IMG/VR virus record: IMGVR_UViG_3300031519_004866
Direction: 5' to 3' (one strand)
Length of the DNA: 64,000 nt
Source of the DNA: a virus
Shown: positions 10,301-63,024 of the stretch, piece after piece
Numbering within the stretch: position 1 is the stretch's first letter
Layout of the letters: each line of letters opens with the position of its first letter
Notes under the pieces: generated by a model
Told to the model about the DNA's origin: nothing
Databases searched by the model: none
The model's input: the letters and a program-made list of their open reading frames with translations, nothing else
Position numbers and translations under genes: made by a program

Positions 10301-13300
10301 AGTAAATTCATAATTACCTCTACTATCTGTTTCTGACTCAAATTGTAACACACGATAAACATCAGTGTATTCTTGTAAAATCAAACCTGTGGATGGTCTT
10401 GTAGCAACGTTAACAAGTTCACCTGTTAACATAACCTGTGAGTTTGAACGTAATGACATCTTAGTGCCGTTTGGAATAACAGCAAATATTCCGTCAAAGT
10501 TACCAGTTGTGTCGCTGGTTAAGTTAAGTCTAACAACACCTGCAGGTAAGTCGGCAGTTGCAACCGATGTAACTGGGTATCTATAAATTAGGTTTCCGTG
10601 ATTAACTTCAAGTTCTGAATTGTTTAATGGTGTATAATCGTAACCACTAACAAACAAAAACAGTCCGCTTTGTACGTTTGCATACGATGCACTAGGGAAG
10701 TAACATTCAACTGATTGTGCTAGATCATGATACAATGTTGTTGGTGTCGGAACTTCTAATGGATCCGAGCCTTCAGCAACAAGTGCGTAGATACCATGCG
10801 CACTTGACCCACCAACGGATCTAATTTGCGCACCGTTAATTGACATATACGAAGCATAACAGTAATATGTAAACATAGATACTGCTTCTGTTAAACCACC
10901 GTTTGTTGCTAGTAGGCCGTAACCCATATCAGCAACTTGTGTAAAGTCGTTTGATAGCATTGATCTGTTACCAGGCATCAATACTTCATAAATTCTTTCG
11001 TGACTGTGTGTTCCAGACCCTGCTGTAGTTGTGTTAATGTCTACACCACCCGGCGTAGCACTAACTTGGAACGTGTTAGTAGTTATATTTGTACCAGATA
11101 CATAATAATCTTGCCCAACTACTAACGGCGAAGGTAGTGTTCCTGTTGTAGTAAATCTAACAACAGCACCTTCTTGTAGTCTGTGTGCTACTCTTGTAAA
11201 TGTTGCTGGACTTGCTTGTGAAATAGTTGTTACAACAGCACCAGCAGTTCTAGTAAAAGCAGTAGTTTCATCTAAAATAAATGATGCAGATGATCCGTTT
11301 TTATTGTATACAAAATCTCTAACATAGTTAATTCTAAAAACAGTGTCATCAACAATAAACGACGCAGGCAACTGCGGCAGTCTTTCTAATCCTGTAACTT
11401 CAATTCTTGTATTAGATGTTGATGAAGCGTGTTGAAACTGTAAGTTACCAGCAAAGCCGTCAACAAACATACCACCAGCAAATGTTTGCTTGTTAATAGA
11501 TTTACTAAATGATGCAGATTCTTGACAGTACGGTGACTTAGCAAGTATTTGTCCTTCTGGATCAAGCACCATCATAAAGCCGCCATGTCCTTGACCAGTA
11601 ACAGCTCTAATAATGTTAGCATCGTTCATTAAGAACACATCTAGTACATCATTTTCTTTTGGATAGTTAACTGAACCTGAACCGTCCATAACATCTTCAA
11701 TAGCATCAAATAATTCAGCAACTACTCCTTGTGAGCCAGTTTCTGCTATGAATGAAGTATCAATAATTTGTAGTGCAGTAGTAATTGTGCCAGGTAGTGC
11801 AACGTTGGTAAGAACATAGTCAATTGCTGTTTGGGCTCTTTCAAGACCTGCAATTGTTTGAGATAGCTGCGCACCAATAGCAACACGCCCACTCGCACTT
11901 TGATAATATTTTAAACCTGCGGAAATTGTTCTGTTATATCCACCATACTTTATATCAAAGATCATAGCGTCAACAACTAGTCCAACATCACGTTTACATA
12001 GTGCTTGATTATATGTAAATGATTGTGTAAACGGTGCAGTATTTGTAGCAATCTGCTGATTGATCCATTCAACAACTTCGTTTTGGATAAACGATTTGTT
12101 TAATTTAATAAGCGCCGCAGCCTTTGTACGTCCGCCGGCATTATCAATTTTAGGGTATACAGGTGCAGTTGAATCACTTAGATAATGATGACCGTATAAT
12201 TGTGTTGCAACAGTCAACCCGTCAACTACAGGGTCTCTTCTAAACTTCTGGAATGACCAAGGAGAACTCGATGTTCCTGGTCTTGGCTTAATTAATACTC
12301 GTCTAAATTCATCACCAATGATAGCAACGTTCTGCGGTACTTTAAGTGGATAGTTTTCTTGGTATATGCCACTTTCAATAAACAATGAAATTTGTACTTG
12401 GTTAGTAATGTCACCGTATGAAATAGCTTCGTCAATTAAGAATGTACCATACTTAATGTCAACATCAAATATTTCGTTGCCGTTACTATCTAATGCACCT
12501 GAGTGTGCTAGTATCTGTGCTAACGCTCCAGATGTTTCACCTCGTAAGTATAAACCTTCTCTAATGTCTCTAGTTCTAAATGCTACAGGAGTATCTGTTA
12601 ATACATCACCTGTGTAATCTGTACGATATCCGCCGGTTGCTAATAAGAATCTTGGTAAGTCAACTTCAACTGTTGGTACTGTTGTAAAGTTTGAACCTGC
12701 ATCTAAAATGTCAACACTAGTAATAATTCCGCCACTAATAACTGCATTACCAAACGATCCTACAGCCGGAAGTGGTGCGCTTACTCTTACTGATACTAAA
12801 CTATAACCACTACCACCAGCACTAATATCAACCCCATTGACTTTATATGTAATATCAAATGTAGCTCCAAGACCAAATGTACTATCGGAAGTAGTTACAA
12901 CTCCTACAGTTCCTGGTAATACTGTATAATCACCTTGTGCTACTAGTTGAAACGTTGTAATTGCACCTGGAGAAGTTGCTGTTGAAAGCACCTTAATAGT
13001 TGCACTTGTTCCTGTACCACCTGACAGTGTAATAATATCGCCTGCTTGATAGTTTGCCCCAGGAGCATTCATTGTAACTTTGTCAACACTCATTCTAGCA
13101 GTACCAGCAAATCCAGTACCTGAATCAGGTGAAGTATCAATTTGTGATAGTGTTACAATTCCTGAACCGTTATTGTAAGTAAGTTGTTTTTTGTATGGAC
13201 CAATATCGTCTAATGATTCTAAAACAATTTCTTCTGCACGTTTTAGAGCAGCTTCAATTGTTTTGTATGCATAAGCAAGAGCTCTACCTTGTAGTTCTTC

Positions 13301-13975
13301 ACTTACACCTACTCTTTCGTCTTGTCCTGATGTAGCAACATAAAGATTTACACTACTACCAAACGCTGCACCATCAACATATTGTTTTGTTGCAGCAATT
13401 AAGCCGTCATATAGCTCGTCATCTTCTGGCTCTGGGCTTCTGCTTAAAATTAACGGCCCTGTCATAGTACCAAACGCTACGTTTTGGTTGCCTGTAGCAG
13501 GGTCAATAGTACCAACACCTGCTCTTGAAATTTTAGTATCTGCGTATCCTTTAGAAGCAGCCTCATCTGAAGTTACCGGAGTATCTAAGCCTTGAATTCT
13601 GTAGGTGTTACCACCTGATTGTACTGAAAGGTTACCACCTAGTTGTGGTGAAGTATCGCCTGAAATTTCACTAAATTCAGTGGATATAATAATTTGGTTA
13701 GAGTTTGATATATCATCAACTGTGATGCCAAGACCAGCTGTAAGTTGCTTAAACTGTACTCCGTCAGTGGTTGGATTAACCGCTAATATTGCACCTTCTT
13801 GCCCTAAGAATGACTGTGGTGTATCATCAAGAGCAATAAATGTAAGTTTATCACCAAGTCCTAATGAGCTATACAGCTCTTTGAAGTTGTCATTTGTTTT
13901 ACGAAACGAATCTCTAATACTATCGCCGGTACCGTCGTTTCCAATACTACCAATATCTACAATTTTACGTGCCAT
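7319..13975 (-). CDS. Giant tail fibre/virion protein (2218 aa) with C-terminal peptidase G2-like chaperone domain
   Basis: gp9/10-like N-terminus (DIGSIGNDGTGDSIRDSFRKTNDNF), several HGxxxGD/TYYV modules, C-terminal ADLAEYY...GTVL...GRIPVRV.G.I.KGD...GTIIGKALE. Confidence 0.85.
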   Translation of the reverse strand: MARKIVDIGSIGNDGTGDSIRDSFRKTNDNFKELYSSLGLGDKLTFIALDDTPQSFLGQEGAILAVNPTTDGVQFKQLTAGLGITVDDISNSNQIIISTEFSEISGDTSPQLGGNLSVQSGGNTYRIQGLDTPVTSDEAASKGYADTKISRAGVGTIDPATGNQNVAFGTMTGPLILSRSPEPEDDELYDGLIAATKQYVDGAAFGSSVNLYVATSGQDERVGVSEELQGRALAYAYKTIEAALKRAEEIVLESLDDIGPYKKQLTYNNGSGIVTLSQIDTSPDSGTGFAGTARMSVDKVTMNAPGANYQAGDIITLSGGTGTSATIKVLSTATSPGAITTFQLVAQGDYTVLPGTVGVVTTSDSTFGLGATFDITYKVNGVDISAGGSGYSLVSVRVSAPLPAVGSFGNAVISGGIITSVDILDAGSNFTTVPTVEVDLPRFLLATGGYRTDYTGDVLTDTPVAFRTRDIREGLYLRGETSGALAQILAHSGALDSNGNEIFDVDIKYGTFLIDEAISYGDITNQVQISLFIESGIYQENYPLKVPQNVAIIGDEFRRVLIKPRPGTSSSPWSFQKFRRDPVVDGLTVATQLYGHHYLSDSTAPVYPKIDNAGGRTKAAALIKLNKSFIQNEVVEWINQQIATNTAPFTQSFTYNQALCKRDVGLVVDAMIFDIKYGGYNRTISAGLKYYQSASGRVAIGAQLSQTIAGLERAQTAIDYVLTNVALPGTITTALQIIDTSFIAETGSQGVVAELFDAIEDVMDGSGSVNYPKENDVLDVFLMNDANIIRAVTGQGHGGFMMVLDPEGQILAKSPYCQESASFSKSINKQTFAGGMFVDGFAGNLQFQHASSTSNTRIEVTGLERLPQLPASFIVDDTVFRINYVRDFVYNKNGSSASFILDETTAFTRTAGAVVTTISQASPATFTRVAHRLQEGAVVRFTTTGTLPSPLVVGQDYYVSGTNITTNTFQVSATPGGVDINTTTAGSGTHSHERIYEVLMPGNRSMLSNDFTQVADMGYGLLATNGGLTEAVSMFTYYCYASYMSINGAQIRSVGGSSAHGIYALVAEGSDPLEVPTPTTLYHDLAQSVECYFPSASYANVQSGLFLFVSGYDYTPLNNSELEVNHGNLIYRYPVTSVATADLPAGVVRLNLTSDTTGNFDGIFAVIPNGTKMSLRSNSQVMLTGELVNVATRPSTGLILQEYTDVYRVLQFESETDSRGNYEFTATATNPGVFTFKATISTTASSGNVATFSQNHGLVVGDTIVPDGSGGGLTGGTTYHVIDVPAYTSVVLSTSAGGSAVTLSDATPNLKVVVPHKLLYNYRLSFSSSNTLPAGITAGETYWIREENLTATTFEISNIINGAGPVEITNTGTGTHSAIIEGLTRTTLRENYNYIDLTVYKPGEAKAATTQTFTVSVASPGVITKSSHGFSQGDPITLNTTGALPTGLNTSNHYFVHTVLDSNTFTVSVGYPTLAGAVQVDTTGTQTGTHTYHVPTGAVGDSSFAVVAVAPQERSRVAGSTFVWNGEIYVIDTYEDETVTGNPWGRLTLDRPLVDSLTQFEATYSIKSAVRRGSLGARGKLTIRISLTRVTSHDLLEIGTGSYADTNYPTEIYGPPVNAFNPDTETDERTVGRVFYVTTDQFGNFNVGPYFRVDQGTGQVTFSAAIALSNLDGIGFKRGVPVSEFSTDSAFTDNAVDTVPTENATRLYMERRLGTSHSGAPITQANLIPSISGGFMALDGSLSMKSPMSLGNQKIIDIADPTQPTDGVNLRSLTFTNLQEFTVTNLKANDLLVFTGNGNDAINSTVVGDITLDIDSTLGTIDAQIQPGVILNNDINASAAIAQSKLAMANAQTRANATGITQAEKGIVALDNTYFTVTDGWVTITNSTIPKSKLTNVAAKSVIGNNTLAPATPADVTFTTIVDDGGAIKKTQYSSTGFLRRISGSSNTADVDYSIIEATSNSTSSTLIQRDGNADASARIWNATNSFTVSGNTTMAHGTSGTASYTRLYTGSSGSGGLYLQTGSLASDKRNFYDNDYHRFRTQSGVSLAPIETSQVLTTALTTGGNTTAGTITGRWSLTGTTPSESRFEATYAADLAEYYEGDKEYEVGTVLVFGGDKEVTTSNRYADTRVAGVVSDRAAYVMYTACPGLKNLVGLQGRIPVRVVGKINKGDLIVTAAIHGVGIAADGDVRAGTIIGKALETYDSDHIGTIEVAVGRT

Positions 13976-14012: not shown

Positions 14013-14044
14013 GCCAATAATTTTATAAGCCTAATGTAAAAGAG

Positions 14045-14050
14045 TAAATA
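14045..14050 (+). promoter_or_regulatory. Late-type promoter, leaderless (TAAATA-N5-ATG)
   Basis: TAAATA ataac ATG(14056), no SD. Confidence 0.65.
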
Positions 14051-14055
14051 ATAAC

Positions 14056-14343
14056 ATGTTCATAAAGACAGAAAGAATTAATACTCATTACACTCGGCAA
14101 AGCAAATTAGGCAATACTCACGAATATTGTCGAGCTAAAACCATTGTACATTTACAATGCGACAATTGTGATACTGTATTTACCAGAGACCTTAAGAAGA
14201 TTAATAGAACTAGATTAAGCAACAACTATTTTCATGTGTGTAGCAACTGTGATGCCAAAAGATTTGCACAACGAAAAGGTGTAGAGCAAAAGCAAATATG
14301 GGATCTTCCAATATCTCAAGACATCCCAATCTCTAAATTTTAA
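14056..14343 (+). CDS. Zn-ribbon hypothetical protein
   Basis: Two CxxC pairs (CDNC, CSNC). Confidence 0.75.
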   Translation: MFIKTERINTHYTRQSKLGNTHEYCRAKTIVHLQCDNCDTVFTRDLKKINRTRLSNNYFHVCSNCDAKRFAQRKGVEQKQIWDLPISQDIPISKF

Positions 14344-51720: not shown

Positions 51721-52293
51721 CTAAGATAATATTTCAACGTCTGCAGCTATTATATATCTATATTTATCACTTTGCGGCATTGCTGGTCTATGCCAGTAAT
51801 GGCTTGGGTATACTAACCAACTGTAATCAGCTGGTTTTACAAAGAATTTACCTTCCTTTTCAGGCCCGTTAGGTGCAAATTCAGTTCCGCAGTAATCTTT
51901 GTTTTCAACGTTATCAGGAATTTCTAAATACATAATGCCGCTCATACTTTGTGGCTGCGGTTTGTGTTGATGATGGTGCCATAGCTTTTCTCTATCTTCT
52001 GCACCTGCTGTATTAGTTTTAAAACTCCATGCCTGCATATTACCTACTTTAACTTCTTTATCAAAGTACATGAAAATACTAAACAAGAAGCTCATACGGT
52101 ACTTTAACCATAAAGGTTCTGGCCTAGCAAATATGTTTTCTTTAGTTTGAAATTTAGGAGAGTTTTCCCAATAGTTGCCGCTGTCAATGATGCTGTTAAC
52201 AATTTGAATAGCGTTTTGATTATCTTCTGCTGTTATAGTAGAACTAAAATCAAACTTTTTAAACGTTGAATTAGAATCAATTAAATTATCCAT
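51721..52293 (-). CDS. Putative 2OG-Fe(II) oxygenase
   Basis: WHHH...SGI.YL, .YPS..WHRP, R...A.D. Confidence 0.7.
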   Translation of the reverse strand: MDNLIDSNSTFKKFDFSSTITAEDNQNAIQIVNSIIDSGNYWENSPKFQTKENIFARPEPLWLKYRMSFLFSIFMYFDKEVKVGNMQAWSFKTNTAGAEDREKLWHHHQHKPQPQSMSGIMYLEIPDNVENKDYCGTEFAPNGPEKEGKFFVKPADYSWLVYPSHYWHRPAMPQSDKYRYIIAADVEILS

Positions 52294-53002
52294 CTACAAG
52301 ATTCTCTTTAATTTGTTTTAAAACAAGTTGTTTCATCCGTGTTTCTTTAAACCTTGCATACCTATTTGCCAAAGGTACCCACGAGTCCCAAGATGTTGAT
52401 GTACTACATGCAACCGAATAACGCTTTAGCTCGTCATTCATTTTAAATCTAATAAACTCAATAGGTTTCTCTGTACCAAATCCAAAGTAGCATAACGGTT
52501 CATCTTCTTTAATTGTAAACTTTTTAAGACCTGGATCTAGCATGAACTCTACATTAACTGCCCTAAACCACTTGCCAATATCGTACCTAGCAGGTACCAT
52601 AGTTGCAGTCTTCTGCCATAGACTGTTATTAAACCACGGAGCAGTAAGAGTACAGTCTAAGCTATCAGCATCAGTAAAGAACACATAACGCAACCCATAT
52701 TCTAATAGGATTTGATCATGCAAGTTAGGTTGTCGAACAACATTTGCAAACACACCTTGACGTGTAGTTGGCGGTATCATCTGTCCATTGTTATCAAACT
52801 CGAACGTTGATGTAAGAGGGTTCTTAAATTCTAGTGTATTTTTTGCTAAATGTTTAAAGGCAGGGCAATAGAACATACTGTCATACTTGTTGACATCTGT
52901 TTTTTGTTTATATGATTTATCAAAAACACTGATTGGATCTGCATACAACATGTTCCAATCAATACTAGTGTGTTCGTAATCGGGTGCCCAATAAACCTTC
53001 AT
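52286..53002 (-). CDS. Hypothetical protein, possible dUTPase-like beta fold
   Basis: CPAF...F..P and D...W.R.VN..F...IK.DEPL pattern similar to 16721..17545. Confidence 0.6.
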   Translation of the reverse strand: MKVYWAPDYEHTSIDWNMLYADPISVFDKSYKQKTDVNKYDSMFYCPAFKHLAKNTLEFKNPLTSTFEFDNNGQMIPPTTRQGVFANVVRQPNLHDQILLEYGLRYVFFTDADSLDCTLTAPWFNNSLWQKTATMVPARYDIGKWFRAVNVEFMLDPGLKKFTIKEDEPLCYFGFGTEKPIEFIRFKMNDELKRYSVACSTSTSWDSWVPLANRYARFKETRMKQLVLKQIKENLVDG

Positions 53003-53454
53003 GCTAATTCTTCTTTATCGTTACCTATCCAGTTAGCTACATCATCACCGTAATTACGAATAAAGTTTCCGTTCTTAACTTTCATTGCAACTGCGCCGCC
53101 ACCCGATCTAATATACTGCCGGCCTCCGTCAATCATTTTATCGCCTACAACTTTGTAGTCGTGGTGTGACTGACTGTAATAGTATTTACCGTCAACTTCA
53201 ATCATACCAAACTCAAGTTCTTCTATTTTATCAGCATTAGTGATCATCATACAGTCACGTATCGAATCCCAATATAAACCAAAATACCTATTACCAAAGT
53301 CAGGGTGAGGCTCGGCCCTGTAAAAAATGTCACAAGGAACGTCACTAGCATTGAGATCGCTAGTGCATACATATCGTATTTCACATCCGTCTTTTCGTCC
53401 ATAGAGTTCTTCTACCTTTGCTGTATCAAATAATGGCTCGTGTTTGATGTTCAC
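52999..53454 (-). CDS. Hypothetical phage protein
   Basis: YSQSHHDY...IDGGR.YIR; coupled ORF. Confidence 0.75.
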   Translation of the reverse strand: MNIKHEPLFDTAKVEELYGRKDGCEIRYVCTSDLNASDVPCDIFYRAEPHPDFGNRYFGLYWDSIRDCMMITNADKIEELEFGMIEVDGKYYYSQSHHDYKVVGDKMIDGGRQYIRSGGGAVAMKVKNGNFIRNYGDDVANWIGNDKEELA

Positions 53455-53985
53455 TTACATTAATCCTTCTTGTCCTAATAGTTCAACATTTTCATCTGTT
53501 AGCGGAATTTCAGTCTTGACCATTAATTCAAAGATCTCTTCTTCAAGTGCTTGTCGACTCATTGTAAGACTGCCAACTTCTGCTTTAGCTTGTTTAATTT
53601 GTTCTAATGATACAACACCTGTACTTACGCTTCCATCTACTTCGTCTAAATAGCCTTTGAGCGCATCAGGGTCTGTTAGCGGAATTGCATCTGCAATCTG
53701 TTTTACCTGTGCAATCCTATTATCAACAAACCCAATCTTAGCTTGTGCAGTAGTAATACCACTACCTGCCATAGCTTGTGAAACTAGTGCTGCAATATTG
53801 TAATAGGTTTGAAGTAGACGTTGTCTACGCTCGTCAGTTTTAAAAAGTGTTTCGTTAGCACTTTCAAGTGTTTTAATAATATCATCGTCTTTCTTAACTT
53901 CGTGTGAAAAGTTAAGGTGTACAGAATCAATATGTCGCTTAATACTATTCTGTAAATGTGTTGCTTTGCGAATGCTCAGTTCCAT
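53455..53985 (-). CDS. Hypothetical coiled-coil protein
   Basis: Start revised to 53985 (SD GGAGG). Confidence 0.75.
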   Translation of the reverse strand: MELSIRKATHLQNSIKRHIDSVHLNFSHEVKKDDDIIKTLESANETLFKTDERRQRLLQTYYNIAALVSQAMAGSGITTAQAKIGFVDNRIAQVKQIADAIPLTDPDALKGYLDEVDGSVSTGVVSLEQIKQAKAEVGSLTMSRQALEEEIFELMVKTEIPLTDENVELLGQEGLM

Positions 53986-54268
53986 AATTATCCTCCTCGT
54001 TAATTGCTGCAATTAGTTCTTCTTCAGCATTGTTTACAAGACCATTATAATGATCTTCGGTATACATACCAAGTGCAATTTCTTTTATTGCAATTGTTGT
54101 AACTTTTTGGCCAGGATGAATTTCTACCCTAGGTGCAGATCCTTGCTGAAGTTCTCGAGCTCTTTTTGATGCCATCAAGCACAACAAATGTTGATTATCT
54201 ACAGCATCGTGTGCTGCCTGATGTAGTGTATATGCTTCACGTTGTTTTTGGTCTGCTACAGTAGCCAT
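53945..54268 (-). CDS. rpoZ: RNA polymerase omega subunit homolog
   Basis: N...L..MASKRAREL..G..P.V......K.TTIA..EIA.G matches RpoZ core (E. coli NRFDLVLVAARRARQMQ.GG..P.V...NDKTTVIALREIEEG). Confidence 0.8.
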   Translation of the reverse strand: MATVADQKQREAYTLHQAAHDAVDNQHLLCLMASKRARELQQGSAPRVEIHPGQKVTTIAIKEIALGMYTEDHYNGLVNNAEEELIAAINEEDNYGTEHSQSNTFTE

Positions 54269-54299
54269 AATTTAATTCCTTTATATTTGTTACAATATC

Positions 54300-54328
54300 A
54301 TTGTAGCACGTTTTAAACAGTATGTCAA
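54300..54328 (-). promoter_or_regulatory. Sigma70 early promoter for rpoZ homolog
   Basis: TTGACA-N17-TACAAT with TG extension. Confidence 0.8.
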
Positions 54329-54332
54329 CATA

Positions 54333-54944
54333 TCATTTAGCAATAAGTTTAGCATCCCATGCCAAAATAGTTCTACAACCTTGACCGCTCCATGGATACA
54401 CTGTGTGCGGTATGTAACTTGGAAAAATAATCATTTTTAATGGCTGCGGTTTAAATCGCCATTGATCAGTAAACACAAAATGTGCTGGATTTCTAATTAC
54501 TGGTAATCTAAATTCAATATTTGCATCGCTTGGCCTAGCGTTTTCTTCTAGTAACGGTATGTCAATATAAATGTTACCACTAATGTGTGCTTCATGACTG
54601 TGAAGTGCTTGGTAGTCCCCGCTTTCTTGTTTAATAGTCCATGCTGAAATTAATACAGGATCATATCCATATAAGTCACCAACGCCACTAGTTTTAATAA
54701 TGTTAGCAATATACTCTTTACAGCGATTCTCAACAAAGTCTTTTAGGTGTGTAGTATTCAACCCAAGTTCGTTTGGTAACAACTGTATTTGTTGCCCACC
54801 TCTAATGCTAATCTCAGGATTGCCTTCATCGTTCTTTTCGCTGTGTTCGTGAGCAGCATCTGTTAGTGCTTTTAGTTGTGAATAATCTCCTGACGGAACA
54901 TCGTCAACTGCCATCACTGTTGGATTAAAATATGCAAACTTCAT
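54333..54944 (-). CDS. Putative 2OG-Fe(II) oxygenase (TIGR02466-like)
   Basis: SAW..KQ..GDYQ.LHSH...SG.IY, IFPS.I.H.V.P, R...AW. Confidence 0.75.
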   Translation of the reverse strand: MKFAYFNPTVMAVDDVPSGDYSQLKALTDAAHEHSEKNDEGNPEISIRGGQQIQLLPNELGLNTTHLKDFVENRCKEYIANIIKTSGVGDLYGYDPVLISAWTIKQESGDYQALHSHEAHISGNIYIDIPLLEENARPSDANIEFRLPVIRNPAHFVFTDQWRFKPQPLKMIIFPSYIPHTVYPWSGQGCRTILAWDAKLIAK

Positions 54945-55543
54945 TATACATTTAACCTTGTTAGAGTTTGACCGTTAATTTGACCTTTGACAAACGTGTT
55001 AAAACTTAGTGTAATTCTAGGTGTTGTTCCTGTGTACGACTGTACCAAGTGTTCCATGCTAGAAGGAAAAATTAGCATTGTACCAACTGTCGGTTCAACT
55101 GACCAACTTTTACTGTTCCACAAGTTTGGTTCTGTGATTTCAAACTCTAGTGTGTCGTATGCACCTGTAATGAAGCTAGTATGTCCGCCTTGCTCTGCGT
55201 CACCACTAAGGAATACAATTGCAGAAAGTACTGAGTTAGGATGCCAATGTCTATGATGTGTTTGATTAGTTTCTGTTTTATTAAACCAAGACTCTGTAAT
55301 GTAAATTTCTGTTACAGGGTCAACATGCATAACGTCATAAAAGTAATCGTGTATACCTTTCATACATTCTTCTTTAAGTTTCTTAAAGTTATCATCATCT
55401 AGCACTGTTTGACTAGTACTAATGTTGTTATGATAGTTAGGCACCCATTCAATTTTGCTTATGTCTGTACCTTCTAAATCTACTGTGGTACGTATAACTG
55501 TTTTAGCAAACAGTGGATATACTTCTAAGTTTTCGTTGTTCAT
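54944..55543 (-). CDS. Putative 2OG-Fe(II) oxygenase (TIGR02466-like)
   Basis: SW.N......HH.H.HPNS.LS...FL, IFPS...H.V, R.TLSFN. Confidence 0.82.
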   Translation of the reverse strand: MNNENLEVYPLFAKTVIRTTVDLEGTDISKIEWVPNYHNNISTSQTVLDDDNFKKLKEECMKGIHDYFYDVMHVDPVTEIYITESWFNKTETNQTHHRHWHPNSVLSAIVFLSGDAEQGGHTSFITGAYDTLEFEITEPNLWNSKSWSVEPTVGTMLIFPSSMEHLVQSYTGTTPRITLSFNTFVKGQINGQTLTRLNV

Positions 55544-56184
55544 GTTCTTTCCTTTGGTATCATTATCCTGTCTATGTTTCTTTCGCAGATATCTACAACT
55601 ACATAATCTAATTTGTTTTCTAGATAGTCGATAGCATAATGTTGTTGCTGAAAGCGAAGTGCTTCGTCAGGCGCAGCTTCGCAAATAATTAGTGGTCTGT
55701 ATTTCTCAATAGTTTTTAACGCTCCTTGGATGATATCATATTCAAAGCCATCAGTGTCTATTTTAATGTAGTCAATATTAGGAAGATTAAAACTATCTAA
55801 CGTATAAGTTTTAAGTTCGCTTTGGCCAAATGTTGTATCTAATCTTGGGTACTTGTTTTTAGTATTTCCTAGACAACATGTAAAGTGCGTAACTTTTTCT
55901 TGACTTACATTTCTAGGAAATAGTTTACGCTTACGAGGATCAAAACAAAATACATGTTCAAAGTCTTCTTGTAGATAACGAGTAAATTCACCATCTCTAC
56001 AACCAATGTCAACTGCATTGCGTCTTGAGTGTATGTGTGGAACACTCTTAACCCAAGTTAATTTACAATGATGATTAGGAAACTCTTGAATGCCATCCGT
56101 GCTATGAAAGAAATCTTTATCATACCATGACGGATCATAGATGTACTGTTCTGGTAAAAATTCTGTTATAGATACTGGGTACAT
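55540..56184 (-). CDS. FkbM-family methyltransferase
   Basis: VDIGCRDG, TLDSF.L..IDYIKID.DGFEY..I.GA; start revised to 56184 (longer start overlaps tRNA). Confidence 0.8.
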   Translation of the reverse strand: MYPVSITEFLPEQYIYDPSWYDKDFFHSTDGIQEFPNHHCKLTWVKSVPHIHSRRNAVDIGCRDGEFTRYLQEDFEHVFCFDPRKRKLFPRNVSQEKVTHFTCCLGNTKNKYPRLDTTFGQSELKTYTLDSFNLPNIDYIKIDTDGFEYDIIQGALKTIEKYRPLIICEAAPDEALRFQQQHYAIDYLENKLDYVVVDICERNIDRIMIPKERT

Positions 56185-56202
56185 TATAATCCTTTTATTA
56201 TA

Positions 56203-56278
56203 TGGTGCCGGCAGCAAGATTCGAACTCGCGACCTATGGTTTACAAAACCATTGCTCTACCAACTGAGCTATGCCGGC
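56203..56278 (-). tRNA. trnT: tRNA-Thr(UGU), CCA encoded
   Basis: GCCGGCA TAGCTCAGTTGGTAGAGCA ATGGT TT-TGT-AA ACCAT AGGTC GCGAG TTCGAAT CTTGC TGCCGGC A CCA, 76 nt cloverleaf; TAAATA 7 nt upstream. Confidence 0.95.
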
Positions 56279-56958
56279 GTCTTGTTATTTAACTCCCATG
56301 CTGTTACATCAGCAGGAGAATTGATTTCTATTCCGTTAAAGTCCACACAACTGCAACCTATATCCCAGCCTGCTTTAAGCCAACGTAACTGTTCTAGTTT
56401 TTCAACCTGTTCTTCTTGTGTAACTTCCATGCCTTTATAGAATAATAACGGATTGCGTTTGTATCCGTAAATACCTAAATGCCAATGTCCGTATCCAGTT
56501 AGTCCTCTACCAAACCACAGAGCTTTGTCACCAGCACGTACCATCTTAACTGAGTTAGGATCGTCTTGCATTGCTTTAGGCATTTCTGCGTATACTGTGC
56601 TTATTTGATAATACTTGAGCCATTCTACACAACGTTCAATCATTTGTAGTGTTACATCAGGCATATCGCCTTGTACATTAATAAATTGATCGTACTCATT
56701 AAAGAAGTCGTTTTGTACTGCGCCTGCAACACGTTCTGTGCCGTTGTCGTAATCTTTTTCATCAATCCAGCAGTTATCCGGGCCAAACAAATTAAAGATA
56801 CGCATGTCATCTGTTAGTACATATGTTGGTATCTTAGACGCAACACAAGCGTCATACACACGTTTAATCATAGGAACTCCATCTAACATAGCAAGAGGCT
56901 TTCCAGGGAAACGTGTGCTACCGTAACGTGCAGGTATTAGAATAGCAGTGTTAGGCAT
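56269..56958 (-). CDS. kdsB: CMP-KDO synthetase
   Basis: IPARYGSTRFPGKPLA, NGTER, INVQGD.P, VK.V, H.GIYGY, E...EKLEQLR.L, I.S.ADV; start 56958 (SD AGGTGA). Confidence 0.93.
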   Translation of the reverse strand: MPNTAILIPARYGSTRFPGKPLAMLDGVPMIKRVYDACVASKIPTYVLTDDMRIFNLFGPDNCWIDEKDYDNGTERVAGAVQNDFFNEYDQFINVQGDMPDVTLQMIERCVEWLKYYQISTVYAEMPKAMQDDPNSVKMVRAGDKALWFGRGLTGYGHWHLGIYGYKRNPLLFYKGMEVTQEEQVEKLEQLRWLKAGWDIGCSCVDFNGIEINSPADVTAWELNNKTPA

Positions 56959-57229
56959 TAACTTCACCTACTGTAACTACATTATCCCAACGAAAGCTGC
57001 GCCAGCCTTTTGCATTGATATCCCAAACAATTTGTACTTCTGGATTAATAGCTCTTATTTTCTTTAGTGATGCTGGGTCTTGCTTAGTTGCAGCAGGAAC
57101 AACACCTTCTTTAAGTGTACAAGTCATTACTCGTTTGTCACCATTAATCTTAGTAAATGTTACTACAACTTCTTCTTTTAAAAGTTTAGGAACTGTTTGT
57201 TCTTTTAGTTCTTTAGCTTGGTCTTTCAT
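56951..57229 (-). CDS. SH3-like WYL/DUF2693-type phage protein
   Basis: V.FTK.NG..R.M.CT ... VWD....GWRSF. Confidence 0.72.
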   Translation of the reverse strand: MKDQAKELKEQTVPKLLKEEVVVTFTKINGDKRVMTCTLKEGVVPAATKQDPASLKKIRAINPEVQIVWDINAKGWRSFRWDNVVTVGEVNA

Positions 57230-57239
57230 AAGTTCTCCT

Positions 57240-57407
57240 CTACCATAACCCTATAGTTTTTCCGTTTCCAATAATAATGAAAAAGCAGGTTACGATGTGT
57301 ATGATCCACCAAAAGGTTCGTACCACCGCAACCATGTCAGCTTGACTATCAGTCTCGCCTACTTTTTCACCCAGACTTTTAGCCCAGATTCTCCACACCT
57401 TCTTCAT
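57240..57407 (-). CDS. Small membrane protein (55 aa)
   Basis: MKKVWRIWAKSLGEKVGETDSQADMVAVVRTFWWIIHIVTCFFIIIGNGKTIGLW; ATGA coupling to HD gene. Confidence 0.75.
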   Translation of the reverse strand: MKKVWRIWAKSLGEKVGETDSQADMVAVVRTFWWIIHIVTCFFIIIGNGKTIGLW

Positions 57408-57928
57408 ACATCTCCTGTGATGTACTTGTTAACAATATCAAATGCTTTTGCTCTGAGACTTGCATCTCCTTTGTCCATAACATCTAACAATAATTTCTTT
57501 TCTTGCATAAACACTTTGGCAAAGCTAGGATCATGTTTGATGATACTAGATGAGTTAGCAATTAAATCGGCGTACTTGATAGTCTGCGCATCAGCAGAAG
57601 CAGCAGCAGAGTGATCTCTATCTTTTGCTTTTCTTACAGCTCTATTACCGTCTTCTGGTGTAGAGATATCTGTAAGATCTGATACAAGTGCAGCAACCTT
57701 TTCGCCAAATGCTTCTGTAATAAGCTCGATGCTTGTAGGAGTATCCTCAACTACATCGTGCAATACAGCAGCCATTAACATTTCAGTCGAGTGGGGAACA
57801 GTCCGTACAATACCCATAACTTCTAATGGGTGACCGATGTACGGAGCACCAGTGTACTTGCGCTTTTGCCCTGTGTGAGCAACAGTAGCAAGATGAATAG
57901 CTCTGTCTAATGGGCGCATAATGCTCAT
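57404..57928 (-). CDS. RelA/SpoT-type HD hydrolase (small alarmone hydrolase, Mesh1-like)
   Basis: AH.GQ.RK....PY..HP..V, AAVLHDVVEDT, V..LTD, IK.AD...N. Confidence 0.88.
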   Translation of the reverse strand: MSIMRPLDRAIHLATVAHTGQKRKYTGAPYIGHPLEVMGIVRTVPHSTEMLMAAVLHDVVEDTPTSIELITEAFGEKVAALVSDLTDISTPEDGNRAVRKAKDRDHSAAASADAQTIKYADLIANSSSIIKHDPSFAKVFMQEKKLLLDVMDKGDASLRAKAFDIVNKYITGDV

Positions 57929-58524: not shown

Positions 58525-59082
58525 TTATAGGATATGATCCGCAATTTTAAGTTTGATCAGATCTTTTGCGGTGTAATACTGATCACTTGGGCTATCAAAA
58601 TATTCTTTAACTTTTGCTAAACTATATCCTGTAGCGTCTCTTAGAATGTGTAAACTACGATACTCGCAGTTATTATTTTCAATCATAGCTGACTTCATGT
58701 CGTGCAACTTTGATTCTATATGATCTGAGTGTTGATGATTCATAATACCTGTGTTCTTACCAATGTATCTATGTCCTTGTTCACCACTTGCAAATATTAA
58801 AAACCCTGCACTCATAACAGCACCAACACCGTATGTTGCAATGTTATGCCTACTTTGTTTCATAATATCAATAAGTGCAAATGCTTCATATACTTCGCCA
58901 CCATAGGTGTTAATATACAGTTTTAGAGTACGTTTTGGTTTAATCTTTAAGTTTGCACTTAGTATCCATTTGATTGCTGGTGCTACTGTTTCAGCACTAA
59001 TGTCTCCGTTGAGATAGAAAATATCGTTGTCTACTAGACTTTTGTCTATAGCGTCTGATGCTGTCCAGTTGTCATATTGCAT
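58525..59082 (-). CDS. clpP: ClpP-like protease subunit
   Basis: LYINT.GG.V, MSAG (Ser), M.HQ (His), D..Y.A (Asp); TAAATA at 59112-59117. Confidence 0.88.
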   Translation of the reverse strand: MQYDNWTASDAIDKSLVDNDIFYLNGDISAETVAPAIKWILSANLKIKPKRTLKLYINTYGGEVYEAFALIDIMKQSRHNIATYGVGAVMSAGFLIFASGEQGHRYIGKNTGIMNHQHSDHIESKLHDMKSAMIENNNCEYRSLHILRDATGYSLAKVKEYFDSPSDQYYTAKDLIKLKIADHIL

Positions 59083-60972: not shown

Positions 60973-63024
60973 TTACTTGGTCGTTGCAATGAAAACTCCA
61001 TTCCAATCTTCAGGTAAGTCTTGTGTCTTTTGGAATTCACAACGTTCTATCCACATTGTATAATAGCCTTCTAATTGACCACTAAAGTGTCTTTTTAGTT
61101 TTTCACAAATCCAAATTGCTTCATCAAACTTTTGAGCTCTATATGCTTCATACATACGCTGGTGCATGTTTTGGCTTTTATATTCAGCTTTTGTGCCTTT
61201 AACGTCTAGCACTGTCCATATCCCAATGCCTACAGTTTTTCCTTTAACTGCTAGGTCGTCTATCTTTAAGTAGAAGAAGTCGTCTTTAGTAGTTTGGTAT
61301 GTCGCATCTCCAACAAGTAATACACATCCGTACTCTTTACATTTGCTTTCAATACGAGCGGCTGTACTAACTGCATCTCCGAGGACATCATAACTGTGTC
61401 GGGCTGTTGAACCCATCTCGCCAAGATAGCCAAGACCAGTATTAATGCCAGCCCCCATACCCACTGGGGGTCTTCCTTCTTTGGTAATCTTATCATTAAA
61501 TATCTCCACTGCTTTTAACATATCCAATCCACATTGTACCGCCGTTCTAGGATGATGTGGATCTTCAATTGGTGCATTGTGTATGTGCATACTTGCGTCA
61601 CCAATATACTTAATAACCATACCGTCTGCATCTAGTATGGGCTGTGTAATAGCGTCCATGTAGCCATTCATAATTTTAGTTAGGCCTTTTACATCATCAC
61701 CAAATGATTCACCTAGTGGAGTAAAGCCTCTTAGGTCTGAGAAACAAATTGAAACTTCTTTCTTCATACCGTCTTTGATTAGTTCAGGATTTTCTTGTAG
61801 TAGTCTTACTACTGTTGGTGATGCATATCCAGCGAACTGTTTCTTAATTGCTTGTTTTTGGAAATACTCGTTTACAAATCGGTTAAACACTGCATGAAAG
61901 CCAACAAATGTACTTACTAGTAGTACCCAACTAACGTCCCATAGCTGTAACTGCCCTTTAAACAGCGTGTAAGCACCGTACAAGCACGTTGCATATATCA
62001 CAAGTAGCAATGCTCCAACTACATAATACGGTGCAAAAACAGCAGCAATTATAAGAATAACACCAATTGCAATAGATGCAATGTACTCTACAAATGTAGC
62101 ATAATCAAAACGTACAATGTTATCTCCACTAATAATAGTTTGGAGAGCTGTTGCTCCTGCAACATGACTATACATTTCTCCTTTTGGAGTACCAATCACA
62201 CCTCCTAGTCCTTCTGCTGTTATACCAATAATAACAGTTTTTCCTGCTAGACTAGAGTAGTCTTCATTTGCAGCACTAAGTGTGCTAAACTCTTTATTCC
62301 AACGCAACCAAATTCTAGCATTTGGGTCTGTTTTAATAGTTGCATACGCAGGAACTCGTAACGCAATAATTCCGCCTGGTCCTGTTTTAACTTGATAACT
62401 AGGATCTCCAACAGCAACTCTAATAGTTTCTAATGCAATTGCAGGATATACTTCTTCTCCTACTCTCATCAACAATGGCATACGTCTTACAACACCATCG
62501 ATCTCTGGAGCAGTATTAATAACACCAACACCAGCAGCAACATCGCCTAACTCAGGTATAGGTCCAAGCATGCCTGGCCACTCAAATAACCAAGGAAACG
62601 GATCTCCTATTTTAGCAACACCTCTTGGCACTGCATTTTTGTTTGTTTGAGTTGTTCCTACTTGTGCAATAACAACACCGTTGTCTTTAAGTGCAAAAAC
62701 TAAATCGTTGTCGCCTTGCAATCTATCTGACTCAGAAAACAGTATTGGCATTACAATAATACCAGCGCCTGCTTCTCGCAATTTGTAAATAATATCTGCT
62801 AGTACATCACGCTTCCAAGGCCACTGTCCGTATTGCTGTATAGACGCTTCGTCTATTTCTAGTATTGCAACATCTTGAGATTGTTCTGGAGTGTCGTACT
62901 GTTGTATAAGATCAAATGACTTCAGTCGCATTGTTTCTTTAACAAAAGGATCATTAAATCCTAAAATGCTAATAACAGCCAATGTAATTACTGCTGTGAA
63001 CCAATGTGTAATATATTTGCCCAT
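60973..63024 (-). CDS. CHASE2-domain class III adenylate/guanylate cyclase
   Basis: IDE.SI..YGQWPW.R, D.DGVVRR, three TM helices, FSDLRGFT, KYIGDA, G.GINTG, YDVLGD.V..AAR.ES. Confidence 0.92.
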   Translation of the reverse strand: MGKYITHWFTAVITLAVISILGFNDPFVKETMRLKSFDLIQQYDTPEQSQDVAILEIDEASIQQYGQWPWKRDVLADIIYKLREAGAGIIVMPILFSESDRLQGDNDLVFALKDNGVVIAQVGTTQTNKNAVPRGVAKIGDPFPWLFEWPGMLGPIPELGDVAAGVGVINTAPEIDGVVRRMPLLMRVGEEVYPAIALETIRVAVGDPSYQVKTGPGGIIALRVPAYATIKTDPNARIWLRWNKEFSTLSAANEDYSSLAGKTVIIGITAEGLGGVIGTPKGEMYSHVAGATALQTIISGDNIVRFDYATFVEYIASIAIGVILIIAAVFAPYYVVGALLLVIYATCLYGAYTLFKGQLQLWDVSWVLLVSTFVGFHAVFNRFVNEYFQKQAIKKQFAGYASPTVVRLLQENPELIKDGMKKEVSICFSDLRGFTPLGESFGDDVKGLTKIMNGYMDAITQPILDADGMVIKYIGDASMHIHNAPIEDPHHPRTAVQCGLDMLKAVEIFNDKITKEGRPPVGMGAGINTGLGYLGEMGSTARHSYDVLGDAVSTAARIESKCKEYGCVLLVGDATYQTTKDDFFYLKIDDLAVKGKTVGIGIWTVLDVKGTKAEYKSQNMHQRMYEAYRAQKFDEAIWICEKLKRHFSGQLEGYYTMWIERCEFQKTQDLPEDWNGVFIATTK

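What the first reader, a model, noticed from the sequence alone, without database searches (positions are those of the whole stretch)
53945..54328. Phage-encoded RNA polymerase omega with an N-terminal extension, under an early promoter
Seen: RpoZ core preceded by about 10 extra residues (MATVADQKQRE...) and lacking the N-terminal MAR motif, with an acidic C-tail and a TTGACA/TACAAT promoter. Established: in E. coli, omega residues 2-5 form ppGpp site 1 with beta-prime. Inference: a decoy omega that replaces the host subunit, making RNAP blind to ppGpp at site 1 or favouring the phage late sigma.
Basis: partly seen in the sequence, partly recalled or inferred. Interest (0 to 1): 0.8.

Follow-up and report, generated by a model that had tools for sequence, protein, structure and literature searches.

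The report
Phage-encoded RNA polymerase omega subunit
An uncultured giant marine T4-like phage carries its own, selected copy of omega, the smallest subunit of bacterial RNA polymerase, rebuilt at the end that normally helps bind the starvation signal ppGpp, so the phage probably fits its own part into the host's transcription enzyme, although no binding or ppGpp effect has been shown.

Summary
Window 53945-54268 (-) encodes a 107-aa protein that passes the curated cut-offs for omega (PF01192, TIGR00690). It aligns to solved omegas with a 10-residue offset, has Tyr where E. coli has Arg3, carries an acidic tail, and sits 31 nt behind TTGACA-17-TGcTACAAT.

The window is phage: an uncultured marine relative of Melnitz/HTVC008M, probably about 340 kb.

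- The gene belongs to a large virus-only omega clade. Most members keep the MAR start, so ppGpp blindness cannot explain the family.
- The extended form is a derived, strongly supported subclade under purifying selection.
- Omega is always translationally coupled to a conserved helical protein of unknown function.
- This subclade lacks the ~315-nt structured leader RNA found upstream of omega in most other lineages.
- A (p)ppGpp-hydrolase-type HD gene lies 3 kb away, but it also accompanies MAR-type omegas.

No cultured phage in the phage collection carries the gene, and I found no paper on phage omegas. This scan has already noted phage omegas on other DNA.

Best reading: a substitute omega for host RNA polymerase with an altered ppGpp site 1. 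Binding to beta-prime and any ppGpp effect are untested.

The parts
53945..54268 (-). Phage omega (RpoZ homologue), 107 aa. Residues 1-16 are the extended, MAR-less N-terminus, 17-76 the omega core, and 77-107 the acidic tail.
   Evidence: PF01192 38 bits (cut-off 26) and TIGR00690 28.8 (cut-off 23.6). Offset of 10 residues against solved omegas. All top-50 Foldseek rows for the AF2 model are omega/Rpb6/RpoK chains. dN/dS is about 0.1 in the core and 0.25 in the N-terminus.
54300..54328 (-). Sigma70-type promoter: -35 TTGACA (54328-54323), 17-nt spacer, TG at 54308-54307, -10 TACAAT (54305-54300).
   Evidence: An equivalent promoter is conserved in L001, L003 and L009.
54277..54281 (-). Shine-Dalgarno AAGGA, 8 nt before the omega ATG.
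   Evidence: Read.
53455..53985 (-). Conserved partner gene, 176 aa, all-helical, function unknown. Its ATG at 53985 and its GAGGAGG site (53998-53992) lie inside the omega tail, giving a 41-nt overlap (translational coupling).
   Evidence: AF2 pLDDT 93. 36-40% identical partners follow omega in every other lineage examined. No Pfam family and no informative fold match. Absent from cultured phages.
51721..53454 (-). Three further genes on the same strand, without gaps: 151 aa, 238 aa (PHROG families of unknown function) and a 190-aa weak 2OG-Fe(II) oxygenase-like protein. They are probably co-transcribed with omega.
   Evidence: The same order is seen in L021/L022.
54333..55543 (-). Two 2OG-Fe(II) oxygenase genes directly upstream of omega, a conserved synteny anchor.
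   Evidence: PF13759 at 51 and 67.7 bits. The same neighbours occur in L005, L007, L010, L021 and L044.
57404..57928 (-). HD_4 (RelA/SpoT-type HD hydrolase) gene, 174 aa, behind a 12/12 consensus promoter at 57989-57961. This is context for the ppGpp reading.
   Evidence: PF13328 63.9 bits. Promoter. It is also present next to MAR-type omegas.

Best explanation
The gene encodes a virus-adapted omega subunit. It is made early from a host-sigma70 promoter and takes the omega position on the host beta-prime subunit, so infected cells hold RNA polymerase with a phage part.

Shown:
- It is an omega homologue with the conserved core motifs.
- It lies in a phage.
- It is under purifying selection.
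- It belongs to an old virus-only omega clade.
- It is always co-translated with one conserved helical protein.

Inferred:
- It binds beta-prime as cellular omegas do.
- In this subclade the N-terminus, which in E. coli supplies Ala2/Arg3 to ppGpp site 1, has been replaced by a segment 9-10 residues longer with Tyr in place of Arg. Polymerase carrying it should therefore bind ppGpp at site 1 poorly or differently.
- The coupled partner probably works with omega on the polymerase.

The general reason for phages to keep an omega is more likely to hold or retune host polymerase (assembly, stability, docking of the partner) than to abolish ppGpp sensing, because most family members keep MAR.
For: - Domain scores over the curated cut-offs.
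- Invariant or near-invariant core columns are shared with cellular omegas: L29, A33, R36, R38, G43, P46, A60, E63, I64, G67.
- The AF2 model matches only omega/Rpb6/RpoK chains.
- Phage context: tail fibre, baseplate, thymidylate synthase and other PHROG hits. A 683-aa cyclase is 69% identical to Melnitz and 48% to HTVC008M.
- Core dN/dS is about 0.1.
- Related proteins sit on hundreds of marine contigs of up to 347 kb with the same gene order.
- The tree gives a viral clade at 88/81 support and the extension subclade at 100/99, nested among MAR lineages.
- The partner is conserved and overlapping in all lineages.
- No beta-prime domain was found on 221-kb and 270-kb omega-bearing relatives, so a host polymerase is the likely target.
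- Omega Ala2/Arg3 contact ppGpp in E. coli (PMC13192712). MAR is the recognised motif (PMC6416229).
Against: - No binding data exist, and no complex model could be run.
- The host and its beta-prime and omega are unknown.
- The omega AF2 model is only moderate (pLDDT 73, and 62-78 over the first 30 residues).
- Most viral omegas keep MAR, so the N-terminal change may be neutral drift after a 5' rearrangement.
- The extension in the window has Lys8 and Arg10, which might replace Arg3.
- Sigma and beta-prime searches covered fragments only, and Pfam may miss divergent phage polymerases.
Confidence: 0.5

Rival explanations
1. Plain supply of a host-like part. The phage omega only acts as the beta-prime folding and assembly helper, keeping enough intact polymerase for a ~340-kb genome in a slow, streamlined host. 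It causes no regulatory change, and the N-terminal difference is neutral.
For: The gene sits in an early region rich in proteostasis genes: ClpP in the window, and HSP70, Cpn10 and peptide deformylase in relatives. Most family members keep a host-like MAR start.
Against: The viral clade is old and diverged. The best cellular match is at most 50% identical over 44 residues (best 42-45%). It has its own GLYT signature and an obligatory partner, which is more than a spare part needs. The extension itself is conserved within its subclade, with dN/dS about 0.25.
Confidence: 0.25
2. Docking adaptor. The phage omega is mainly a handle on the polymerase for the co-translated helical partner (or another phage factor), which redirects transcription. 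This is analogous to GafA, which acts on RcGTA genes through omega.
For: The omega-partner overlap is invariant across lineages that differ in everything else at the 5' end. In a separate lineage, omega is followed instead by a DksA/TraR zinc-finger protein, a known polymerase binder. The precedent is PMC9638019 (listed).
Against: The partner has no recognisable DNA-binding or polymerase-binding fold. Its only matches are generic helical hairpins and the unknown-function structure 3kdq. Gene overlap alone does not show a physical interaction.
Confidence: 0.15
3. Subunit of a phage-encoded multisubunit polymerase, or a role unrelated to transcription such as a decoy for a host factor.
For: Large phages can encode highly diverged beta/beta-prime proteins that Pfam models miss. 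Only fragments of this lineage (13-76% complete) could be searched.
Against: No RNA_pol_Rpb1_2 match was found on nine omega-bearing viral contigs, including ones of 221 kb and 270 kb. The phage uses near-consensus sigma70 promoters. Cultured relatives are T4-like and depend on host polymerase (PMC9004378).
Confidence: 0.07

Closest known systems
Proteobacterial RNA polymerase omega subunit (RpoZ; Pfam PF01192, NCBIfam TIGR00690), e.g. the P. aeruginosa (7f0r_E), Vibrio (9gdo_E) and E. coli (10ma_K) chains
   Same: The core matches, and the conserved helix motifs are kept. The predicted fold matches omega chains. An acidic, poorly ordered tail is also seen in P. aeruginosa omega.
   Different: It is encoded by a phage rather than in the usual bacterial rpoZ setting (gmk and rpoZ upstream of spoT, as PMC6416229 describes for Acidithiobacillia). 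It has 10 extra N-terminal residues and Tyr in place of Arg3, so the MAR motif is not met. It has a GLYT signature in place of the usual Gly-Leu-Val/Ile-Thr/Asn. The best identity to any cellular omega is about 45-50% over the core. It overlaps an obligatory partner gene.
MAR-type omegas of sister phages (MARVF and MARITS groups; loci L005, L007, L010, L011, L037, L040, L043)
   Same: They fall in the same viral clade, with the same 2OG-oxygenase, omega, partner gene order. The MARVF group has the same ClpP, HD_4 and KdsB neighbours.
   Different: They keep the canonical N-terminus and are preceded by a ~315-nt structured leader RNA with its own promoter. The window's subclade has neither. It has a 64-nt spacer with the promoter directly upstream.
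GafA-omega control of the Rhodobacter gene transfer agent (PMC9638019)
   Same: A phage-like element exploits the omega subunit to steer host polymerase.
   Different: In that case the host's own omega is used as a contact. Here the virus brings its own omega. No regulator contact has been shown.
T4-type takeover of host polymerase by phage-encoded accessory subunits (gp55 late sigma, gp33, gp45)
   Same: A T4-like phage without its own polymerase supplies proteins that become part of the host transcription complex. Relatives such as Melnitz use this scheme (PMC9004378).
   Different: Those proteins replace or mimic sigma and its co-activators. Replacement of a core subunit has not been described in any paper I could find.

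Membership tests
RNA polymerase omega / Rpb6 family (PF01192, TIGR00690) | Sequence score over the curated family cut-offs | tested here: met
   PF01192 38 bits vs 26; TIGR00690 28.8 vs 23.6. The lineage-specific equivalog NF001579 scores 29.5 vs 58, which is not met.
RNA polymerase omega / Rpb6 family (PF01192, TIGR00690) | Conserved core residues of the two omega helices (Leu-x3-Ala-x2-Arg-x-Arg ... Gly ... Ala-x2-Glu-Ile-x2-Gly) | tested here: met
   L29, A33, R36, R38, G43, P46, A60, E63, I64 and G67 are invariant or at least 90% conserved across viral and cellular rows.
RNA polymerase omega / Rpb6 family (PF01192, TIGR00690) | Omega fold | tested here: met
   AF2 model with pLDDT 73. All 50 best Foldseek PDB rows are omega, Rpb6 or RpoK chains. 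The best has E 0.018, TM 0.62-0.70 on the target length and probability 1.00. The E-values are weak because the protein is small.
RNA polymerase omega / Rpb6 family (PF01192, TIGR00690) | Binds beta-prime and is part of core polymerase | not testable with these tools
ppGpp-site-1-competent proteobacterial omega | N-terminal Met-Ala-Arg, with Ala2/Arg3 placed to contact the ppGpp 5' diphosphate | tested here: not met
   There is a 10-residue offset and Ala12-Tyr13 at the aligned positions. The contacts are described in PMC13192712 and the motif in PMC6416229.
ppGpp-site-1-competent proteobacterial omega | Matching beta-prime pocket (Arg362, Arg417, Lys615, Ile619 and others) in the host | not testable with these tools
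   The host is unknown and no genome is held for the window.
Viral GLYT-type omega clade (defined here) | Gly-Leu/Phe/Met-Tyr-Thr after the second conserved helix, phage context, and an overlapping ~175-190-aa helical partner gene downstream | tested here: met
   Y69 and T70 are conserved. 110 of the 120 best representatives carry the motif. The partner overlap is shown, and the clade has 88/81 support.
Viral GLYT-type omega clade (defined here) | ~315-nt structured leader RNA directly upstream of omega | tested here: not met
   An nhmmer profile of the leader finds 19 related loci (E 1e-85 to 6e-20). It finds nothing in the window or in L001-L004, L012 and L021-L026.

The most novel reading that the evidence does not exclude
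The extended, MAR-less N-terminus removes or plugs ppGpp site 1 once the phage omega has replaced the host subunit. Together with the nearby HD_4 alarmone hydrolase, this gives the phage a two-pronged escape from the stringent response of a nutrient-starved ocean host. The co-translated helical partner docks on the phage omega to steer the rebuilt polymerase. The repeated independent losses of MAR in viral omegas would then be adaptive.
Probability: 0.2. Interest if true: 0.85.

Novelty: new variant of a known kind. Interest (0 to 1): 0.7.

Why it matters
Phages are known to retune host RNA polymerase with sigma factors, anti-sigmas, ADP-ribosylation and small binding proteins. Replacing a core subunit is not in any paper I could find.

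Here the gene is not a one-off. It defines a diverse, virus-only omega clade in abundant uncultured marine and freshwater T4-like phages, many of them probably jumbo phages. It comes with a fixed partner protein and, in most lineages, a structured leader RNA.

Omega is the least understood polymerase subunit. A natural series of viral variants would be a ready-made tool to dissect three things:
- ppGpp site 1;
- omega-dependent sigma competition;
- how starvation signalling limits phage growth in oligotrophic oceans.

The series runs from MAR kept, through +3 and +9/10 extensions, to other replaced N-termini (starts such as MSK, MIR, MSV).

Tried and rejected
- **Bacterial DNA or a host island.** Rejected. 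There are PHROG hits throughout the window, Melnitz/HTVC008M kinship, and identical synteny on viral contigs.
- **Cultured phages with the gene.** tblastn of the window omega, a MAR-type omega and the partner against 50,697 phage records gave only records that look like bacterial DNA filed as phage (Acinetobacter phage MD-2021a, short enterobacterial fragments), or nothing.
- **A recent cellular donor.** A pattern scan of 185,579 species genomes gave one mis-binned phage contig (58% identity). Otherwise it gave at most 50% identity over 44 residues.
- **The phage's own polymerase, sigma or DksA.** No PF00623, PF04542 or PF01258 match on nine omega-bearing viral contigs. These are fragments, so the result is inconclusive.
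- **DksA/TraR in the window.** A C4-pattern scan gave one candidate at 14035-14340 (+), which is not DksA by Pfam.
- **Partner function by fold.** Foldseek and VIA-align returned only generic helical hairpins and 3kdq, a structure of unknown function. Pfam found nothing.
- **HD_4 as a partner specific to MAR-less omegas.** Rejected. MAR-type lineages carry HD_4 too, and more distant omega-bearing phages lack it.
- **The TTGACC box just upstream of MAR-type omegas as a promoter.** I first read it that way. It is part of the closing helix of the leader RNA, and the real promoter lies about 300 nt further up.
- **Rfam match for that leader.** None found.
- **Literature.** Eight completed searches found no paper on phage-encoded omega.

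Full report
**1. What is at the coordinates**

The minus strand of 53945-54268 holds an ATG-started ORF of 107 aa.
- It scores 38 bits on Pfam RNA_pol_Rpb6 (cut-off 26) and 28.8 bits on NCBIfam TIGR00690 rpoZ (cut-off 23.6).
- It matches no PHROG family.
- A sequence search of the Protein Data Bank returns only omega chains. The best are P. aeruginosa 7f0r_E (E 2e-6), Vibrio 9gdo_E and E. coli 10ma_K.
- The register is constant: query residue 17 aligns with residue 7, and residue 20 with residue 10. The protein therefore has 10 residues more in front of the core than these omegas.
- In multiple alignments the positions of Ala2-Arg3 are Ala12-Tyr13.
- No in-frame start codon exists before Leu28, and an AAGGA ribosome site lies 8 nt before the annotated ATG. 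The long form is therefore the real product.
- Residues 77-107 have 8 acidic and no basic residues.
- An AlphaFold2 model built on 8 sequences has pLDDT 73 (about 90 over residues 31-70). Its 50 best Foldseek matches in the PDB are all omega, Rpb6 or RpoK chains.

**2. The promoter**

- TTGACA (54328-54323), a 17-nt spacer, TG, and TACAAT (54305-54300) lie in the 64-nt gap after the upstream gene.
- The whole window has 12 sites with at least 11 of 12 matches, against 3.5 +/- 1.7 in simulated sequence. Most have a perfect -35 box and a 17-nt spacer on the coding strand.
- Orthologous loci have TTGACT-17-TGnTATACT in the same place.
- In the related phage Melnitz, sigma70-type promoters were taken as the early class (PMC9004378). 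'Early' is therefore a reasonable inference, not a measurement.

**3. It is a phage**

- No cellular genome is held for the window.
- Large ORFs hit PHROG tail-fibre, baseplate-wedge, virion-structural, endonuclease, thymidylate synthase, QueD and DNA-polymerase families.
- A 683-aa CHASE2-cyclase is 69% identical to Methylophilales phage Melnitz and 48% to Pelagibacter phage HTVC008M.
- Proteins 58-63% identical to the window omega occur on hundreds of marine contigs (Tara, JGI, ENA), including contigs of 240-347 kb. The gene order there is the same as in the window: cyclase, ClpP, HD_4, WYL_2, KdsB, methyltransferase, two 2OG oxygenases, omega, partner, then Mtd_N.
- CheckV rates a 107-kb relative as 31% complete. 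The lineage is therefore probably a jumbo phage of about 340 kb.

**4. The wider family**

This part changes the interpretation.
- A full HMMER scan of 1.8 billion representatives finds only two hits below 1e-10, and the nearest others are 42-45% identical.
- Those nearest proteins start MARVF, have no extension, and also lie in phage contigs with the same synteny: 2OG oxygenase, omega, an overlapping ~186-aa ORF, with HSP70, KdsB, HD_4 and ClpP upstream.
- A profile scan of IMG/VR gives 20 viral contigs of up to 270 kb with omega genes. The N-termini vary, with starts such as MARVF, MARITS, MSKIAG, MKEAKQ, MSKVTS and MIRYF.
- Among the 120 best cluster representatives of a profile search of 5.8 billion proteins:
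  - 83 start MAR;
  - 7 start MAK;
  - 17 start MKE, with a 3-residue extension;
  - 5 carry the 9-10-residue extension;
  - 110 carry a Gly-Leu/Phe-Tyr-Thr signature.
- That signature is rare in cells. A pattern scan of 185,579 species genomes confirmed 9 loci, the best of which is a mis-binned phage contig.
- Two of these further groups were checked and are also in phage-like contexts with ClpP, a 2OG oxygenase and Mtd_N.
- A maximum-likelihood tree was built on a short alignment, so it should be read with care. It puts the GLYT-type viral omegas in one clade (88/81). The extension subclade (100/99) is nested among MAR-bearing lineages. A further group that starts MVY falls with cellular-type omegas.
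- MAR is thus ancestral in the viral clade and was lost several times.
- The MVY group lies in another phage-like contig, directly upstream of a DksA/TraR zinc-finger gene (44.5 bits) and ClpP.

**5. Selection**

- Between the window and its 116-aa relatives, and among those relatives, dN/dS is about 0.1 in the core (residues 17-76) and about 0.25 in the N-terminal 16 residues.
- It is 0.5-0.8 in the tail, where dS is depressed.
- The depressed dS in the tail is explained by gene overlap (next section).

**6. The partner gene**

- The next gene (53455-53985, 176 aa) starts 41 nt before the omega stop.
- Its GAGGAGG ribosome site is encoded by the Glu/Asp codons of the omega tail. Part of the 'acidic tail' is therefore shaped by the neighbour's translation signals.
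- Homologues 36-74% identical follow omega, with an overlap, in every GLYT-type lineage examined, whatever the omega N-terminus.
- Its model is confident (pLDDT 93) and entirely helical.
- Fold and family searches give only generic hairpins and 3kdq, a structure of unknown function.
- No cultured phage has it.

**7. A missing leader**

- In 19 related loci a conserved element of about 315 nt lies directly upstream of omega. It begins with its own TTGAC-17-TATAAT/TATATT promoter.
- It has a long-range closing helix, and 12 of 38 predicted pairs show compensatory changes. It has no Rfam match.
- A profile of this element finds nothing in the window or in any locus of the extended subclade.
- This subclade therefore differs at the 5' end in three linked ways: no leader RNA, a promoter moved next to the gene, and a new, longer N-terminus.
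- A single 5' replacement event would explain all three. That is an inference.

**8. Mechanism**

- In E. coli, omega Ala2 and Arg3 contact the 5' diphosphate of ppGpp in site 1, at the beta-prime/omega interface (PMC13192712). MAR is the motif used to predict this (PMC6416229).
- If the window protein sits on beta-prime like other omegas, these contacts are gone or displaced.
- That would fit the nearby RelA/SpoT-type HD hydrolase gene (57404-57928, PF13328 63.9 bits, with a 12/12 promoter).
- Three facts limit the claim:
  - most viral omegas keep MAR;
  - the MARVF sister lineage carries the same hydrolase;
  - more distant omega-bearing phages lack it.
- The extension of the window protein is charge-neutral, with Lys8 and Arg10. 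In the 116-aa relatives it is acidic.
- The family-wide role is therefore more likely occupation and retuning of host polymerase together with the partner. Altered ppGpp sensing would be a subclade-specific feature.
- No beta-prime-like domain was found on nine omega-bearing viral contigs, including ones of 221 kb and 270 kb. This favours host polymerase as the target, but these are fragments and Pfam can miss diverged phage polymerases.

**9. Novelty**

- No cultured phage in the phage collection carries the gene.
- The pelagimyophage and Melnitz papers do not mention it.
- None of the literature searches found a description of a phage omega.
- This scan's notebook shows that phage omegas were noted before on other DNA. 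These include forms with about 10-11 extra residues, and an operon with a leader RNA and a helical protein.
- I reached the same picture from this window independently. I verified the partner, the leader and the HD gene myself. Those notes are not independent evidence.

**10. Verdict**

- The gene is a new virus-borne variant of a known protein family. It has a plausible but untested role in rebuilding host RNA polymerase.

Noticed in passing
L005:7363-7683, L007:1880-2199, L044:9686-10000 and 16 further loci; absent from the window: A conserved ~315-nt element with its own sigma70-type promoter lies directly upstream of omega in most viral omega lineages. It has a long-range closing helix, and 12 of 38 predicted pairs show compensatory changes. 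It has no Rfam match, so it is a candidate structured leader or regulatory RNA.
   Followed up: partly
window 57404-57928 (-), promoter 57989-57961: A stand-alone RelA/SpoT-type HD hydrolase (PF13328, 63.9 bits) with no synthetase domain, behind a 12/12 consensus promoter. It is conserved next to ClpP in relatives with either omega type.
   Followed up: partly
L009:8001-8580: In a different phage-like contig, an omega with another MAR-less N-terminus (start MVY) is followed within 11 nt by a DksA/TraR zinc-finger gene (44.5 bits) and then ClpP. This pairs two polymerase-associated, ppGpp-related proteins.
   Followed up: partly
window 60973-63024 (-): A 683-aa CHASE2 plus adenylate/guanylate cyclase protein, 69% identical to Melnitz and 48% to HTVC008M. 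It appears to be a conserved signalling gene of this phage group.
   Followed up: no
window 58525-59082 (-) and 56951-57229 (-): A phage ClpP protease (87.5 bits) and a WYL_2 Sm-like protein (45.4 bits) lie in the same early-looking region. Relatives add HSP70, Cpn10 and peptide deformylase.
   Followed up: no
window 23564-50175: A long block of about 25 genes includes radical SAM proteins. Relatives carry AMP-binding, Asp/Arg hydroxylase and aminotransferase genes just past the omega operon, which may correspond to the 3' part of this block. Together with KdsB (56269-56967) and an FkbM methyltransferase (55540-56217), this suggests a large sugar or lipid modification cluster.
   Followed up: no
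window 56203-56278 (-): tRNA-Thr (TGT) lies between the KdsB and methyltransferase genes. It is the only part of 45-64 kb with nucleotide matches in the phage collection.
   Followed up: no
L012 (NYWG01000195.1) and protein P0058: A 9-kb contig filed under a Verrucomicrobiales MAG carries the phage omega (58% identity). It is most likely a mis-binned phage contig.
   Followed up: no
phage-collection records CAKLQH020000003.1 and CAKLQF020000004.1 (H1, H2) and H19-H24: Records named Acinetobacter phage MD-2021a, and several short 'phage' records, carry ordinary bacterial rpoZ and look like bacterial DNA filed as phage.
   Followed up: no
window 7319-13975 (-): A 2218-aa tail-fibre-like protein with several PHROG tail-fibre matches and a baseplate-wedge-like N-terminus.
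   Followed up: no
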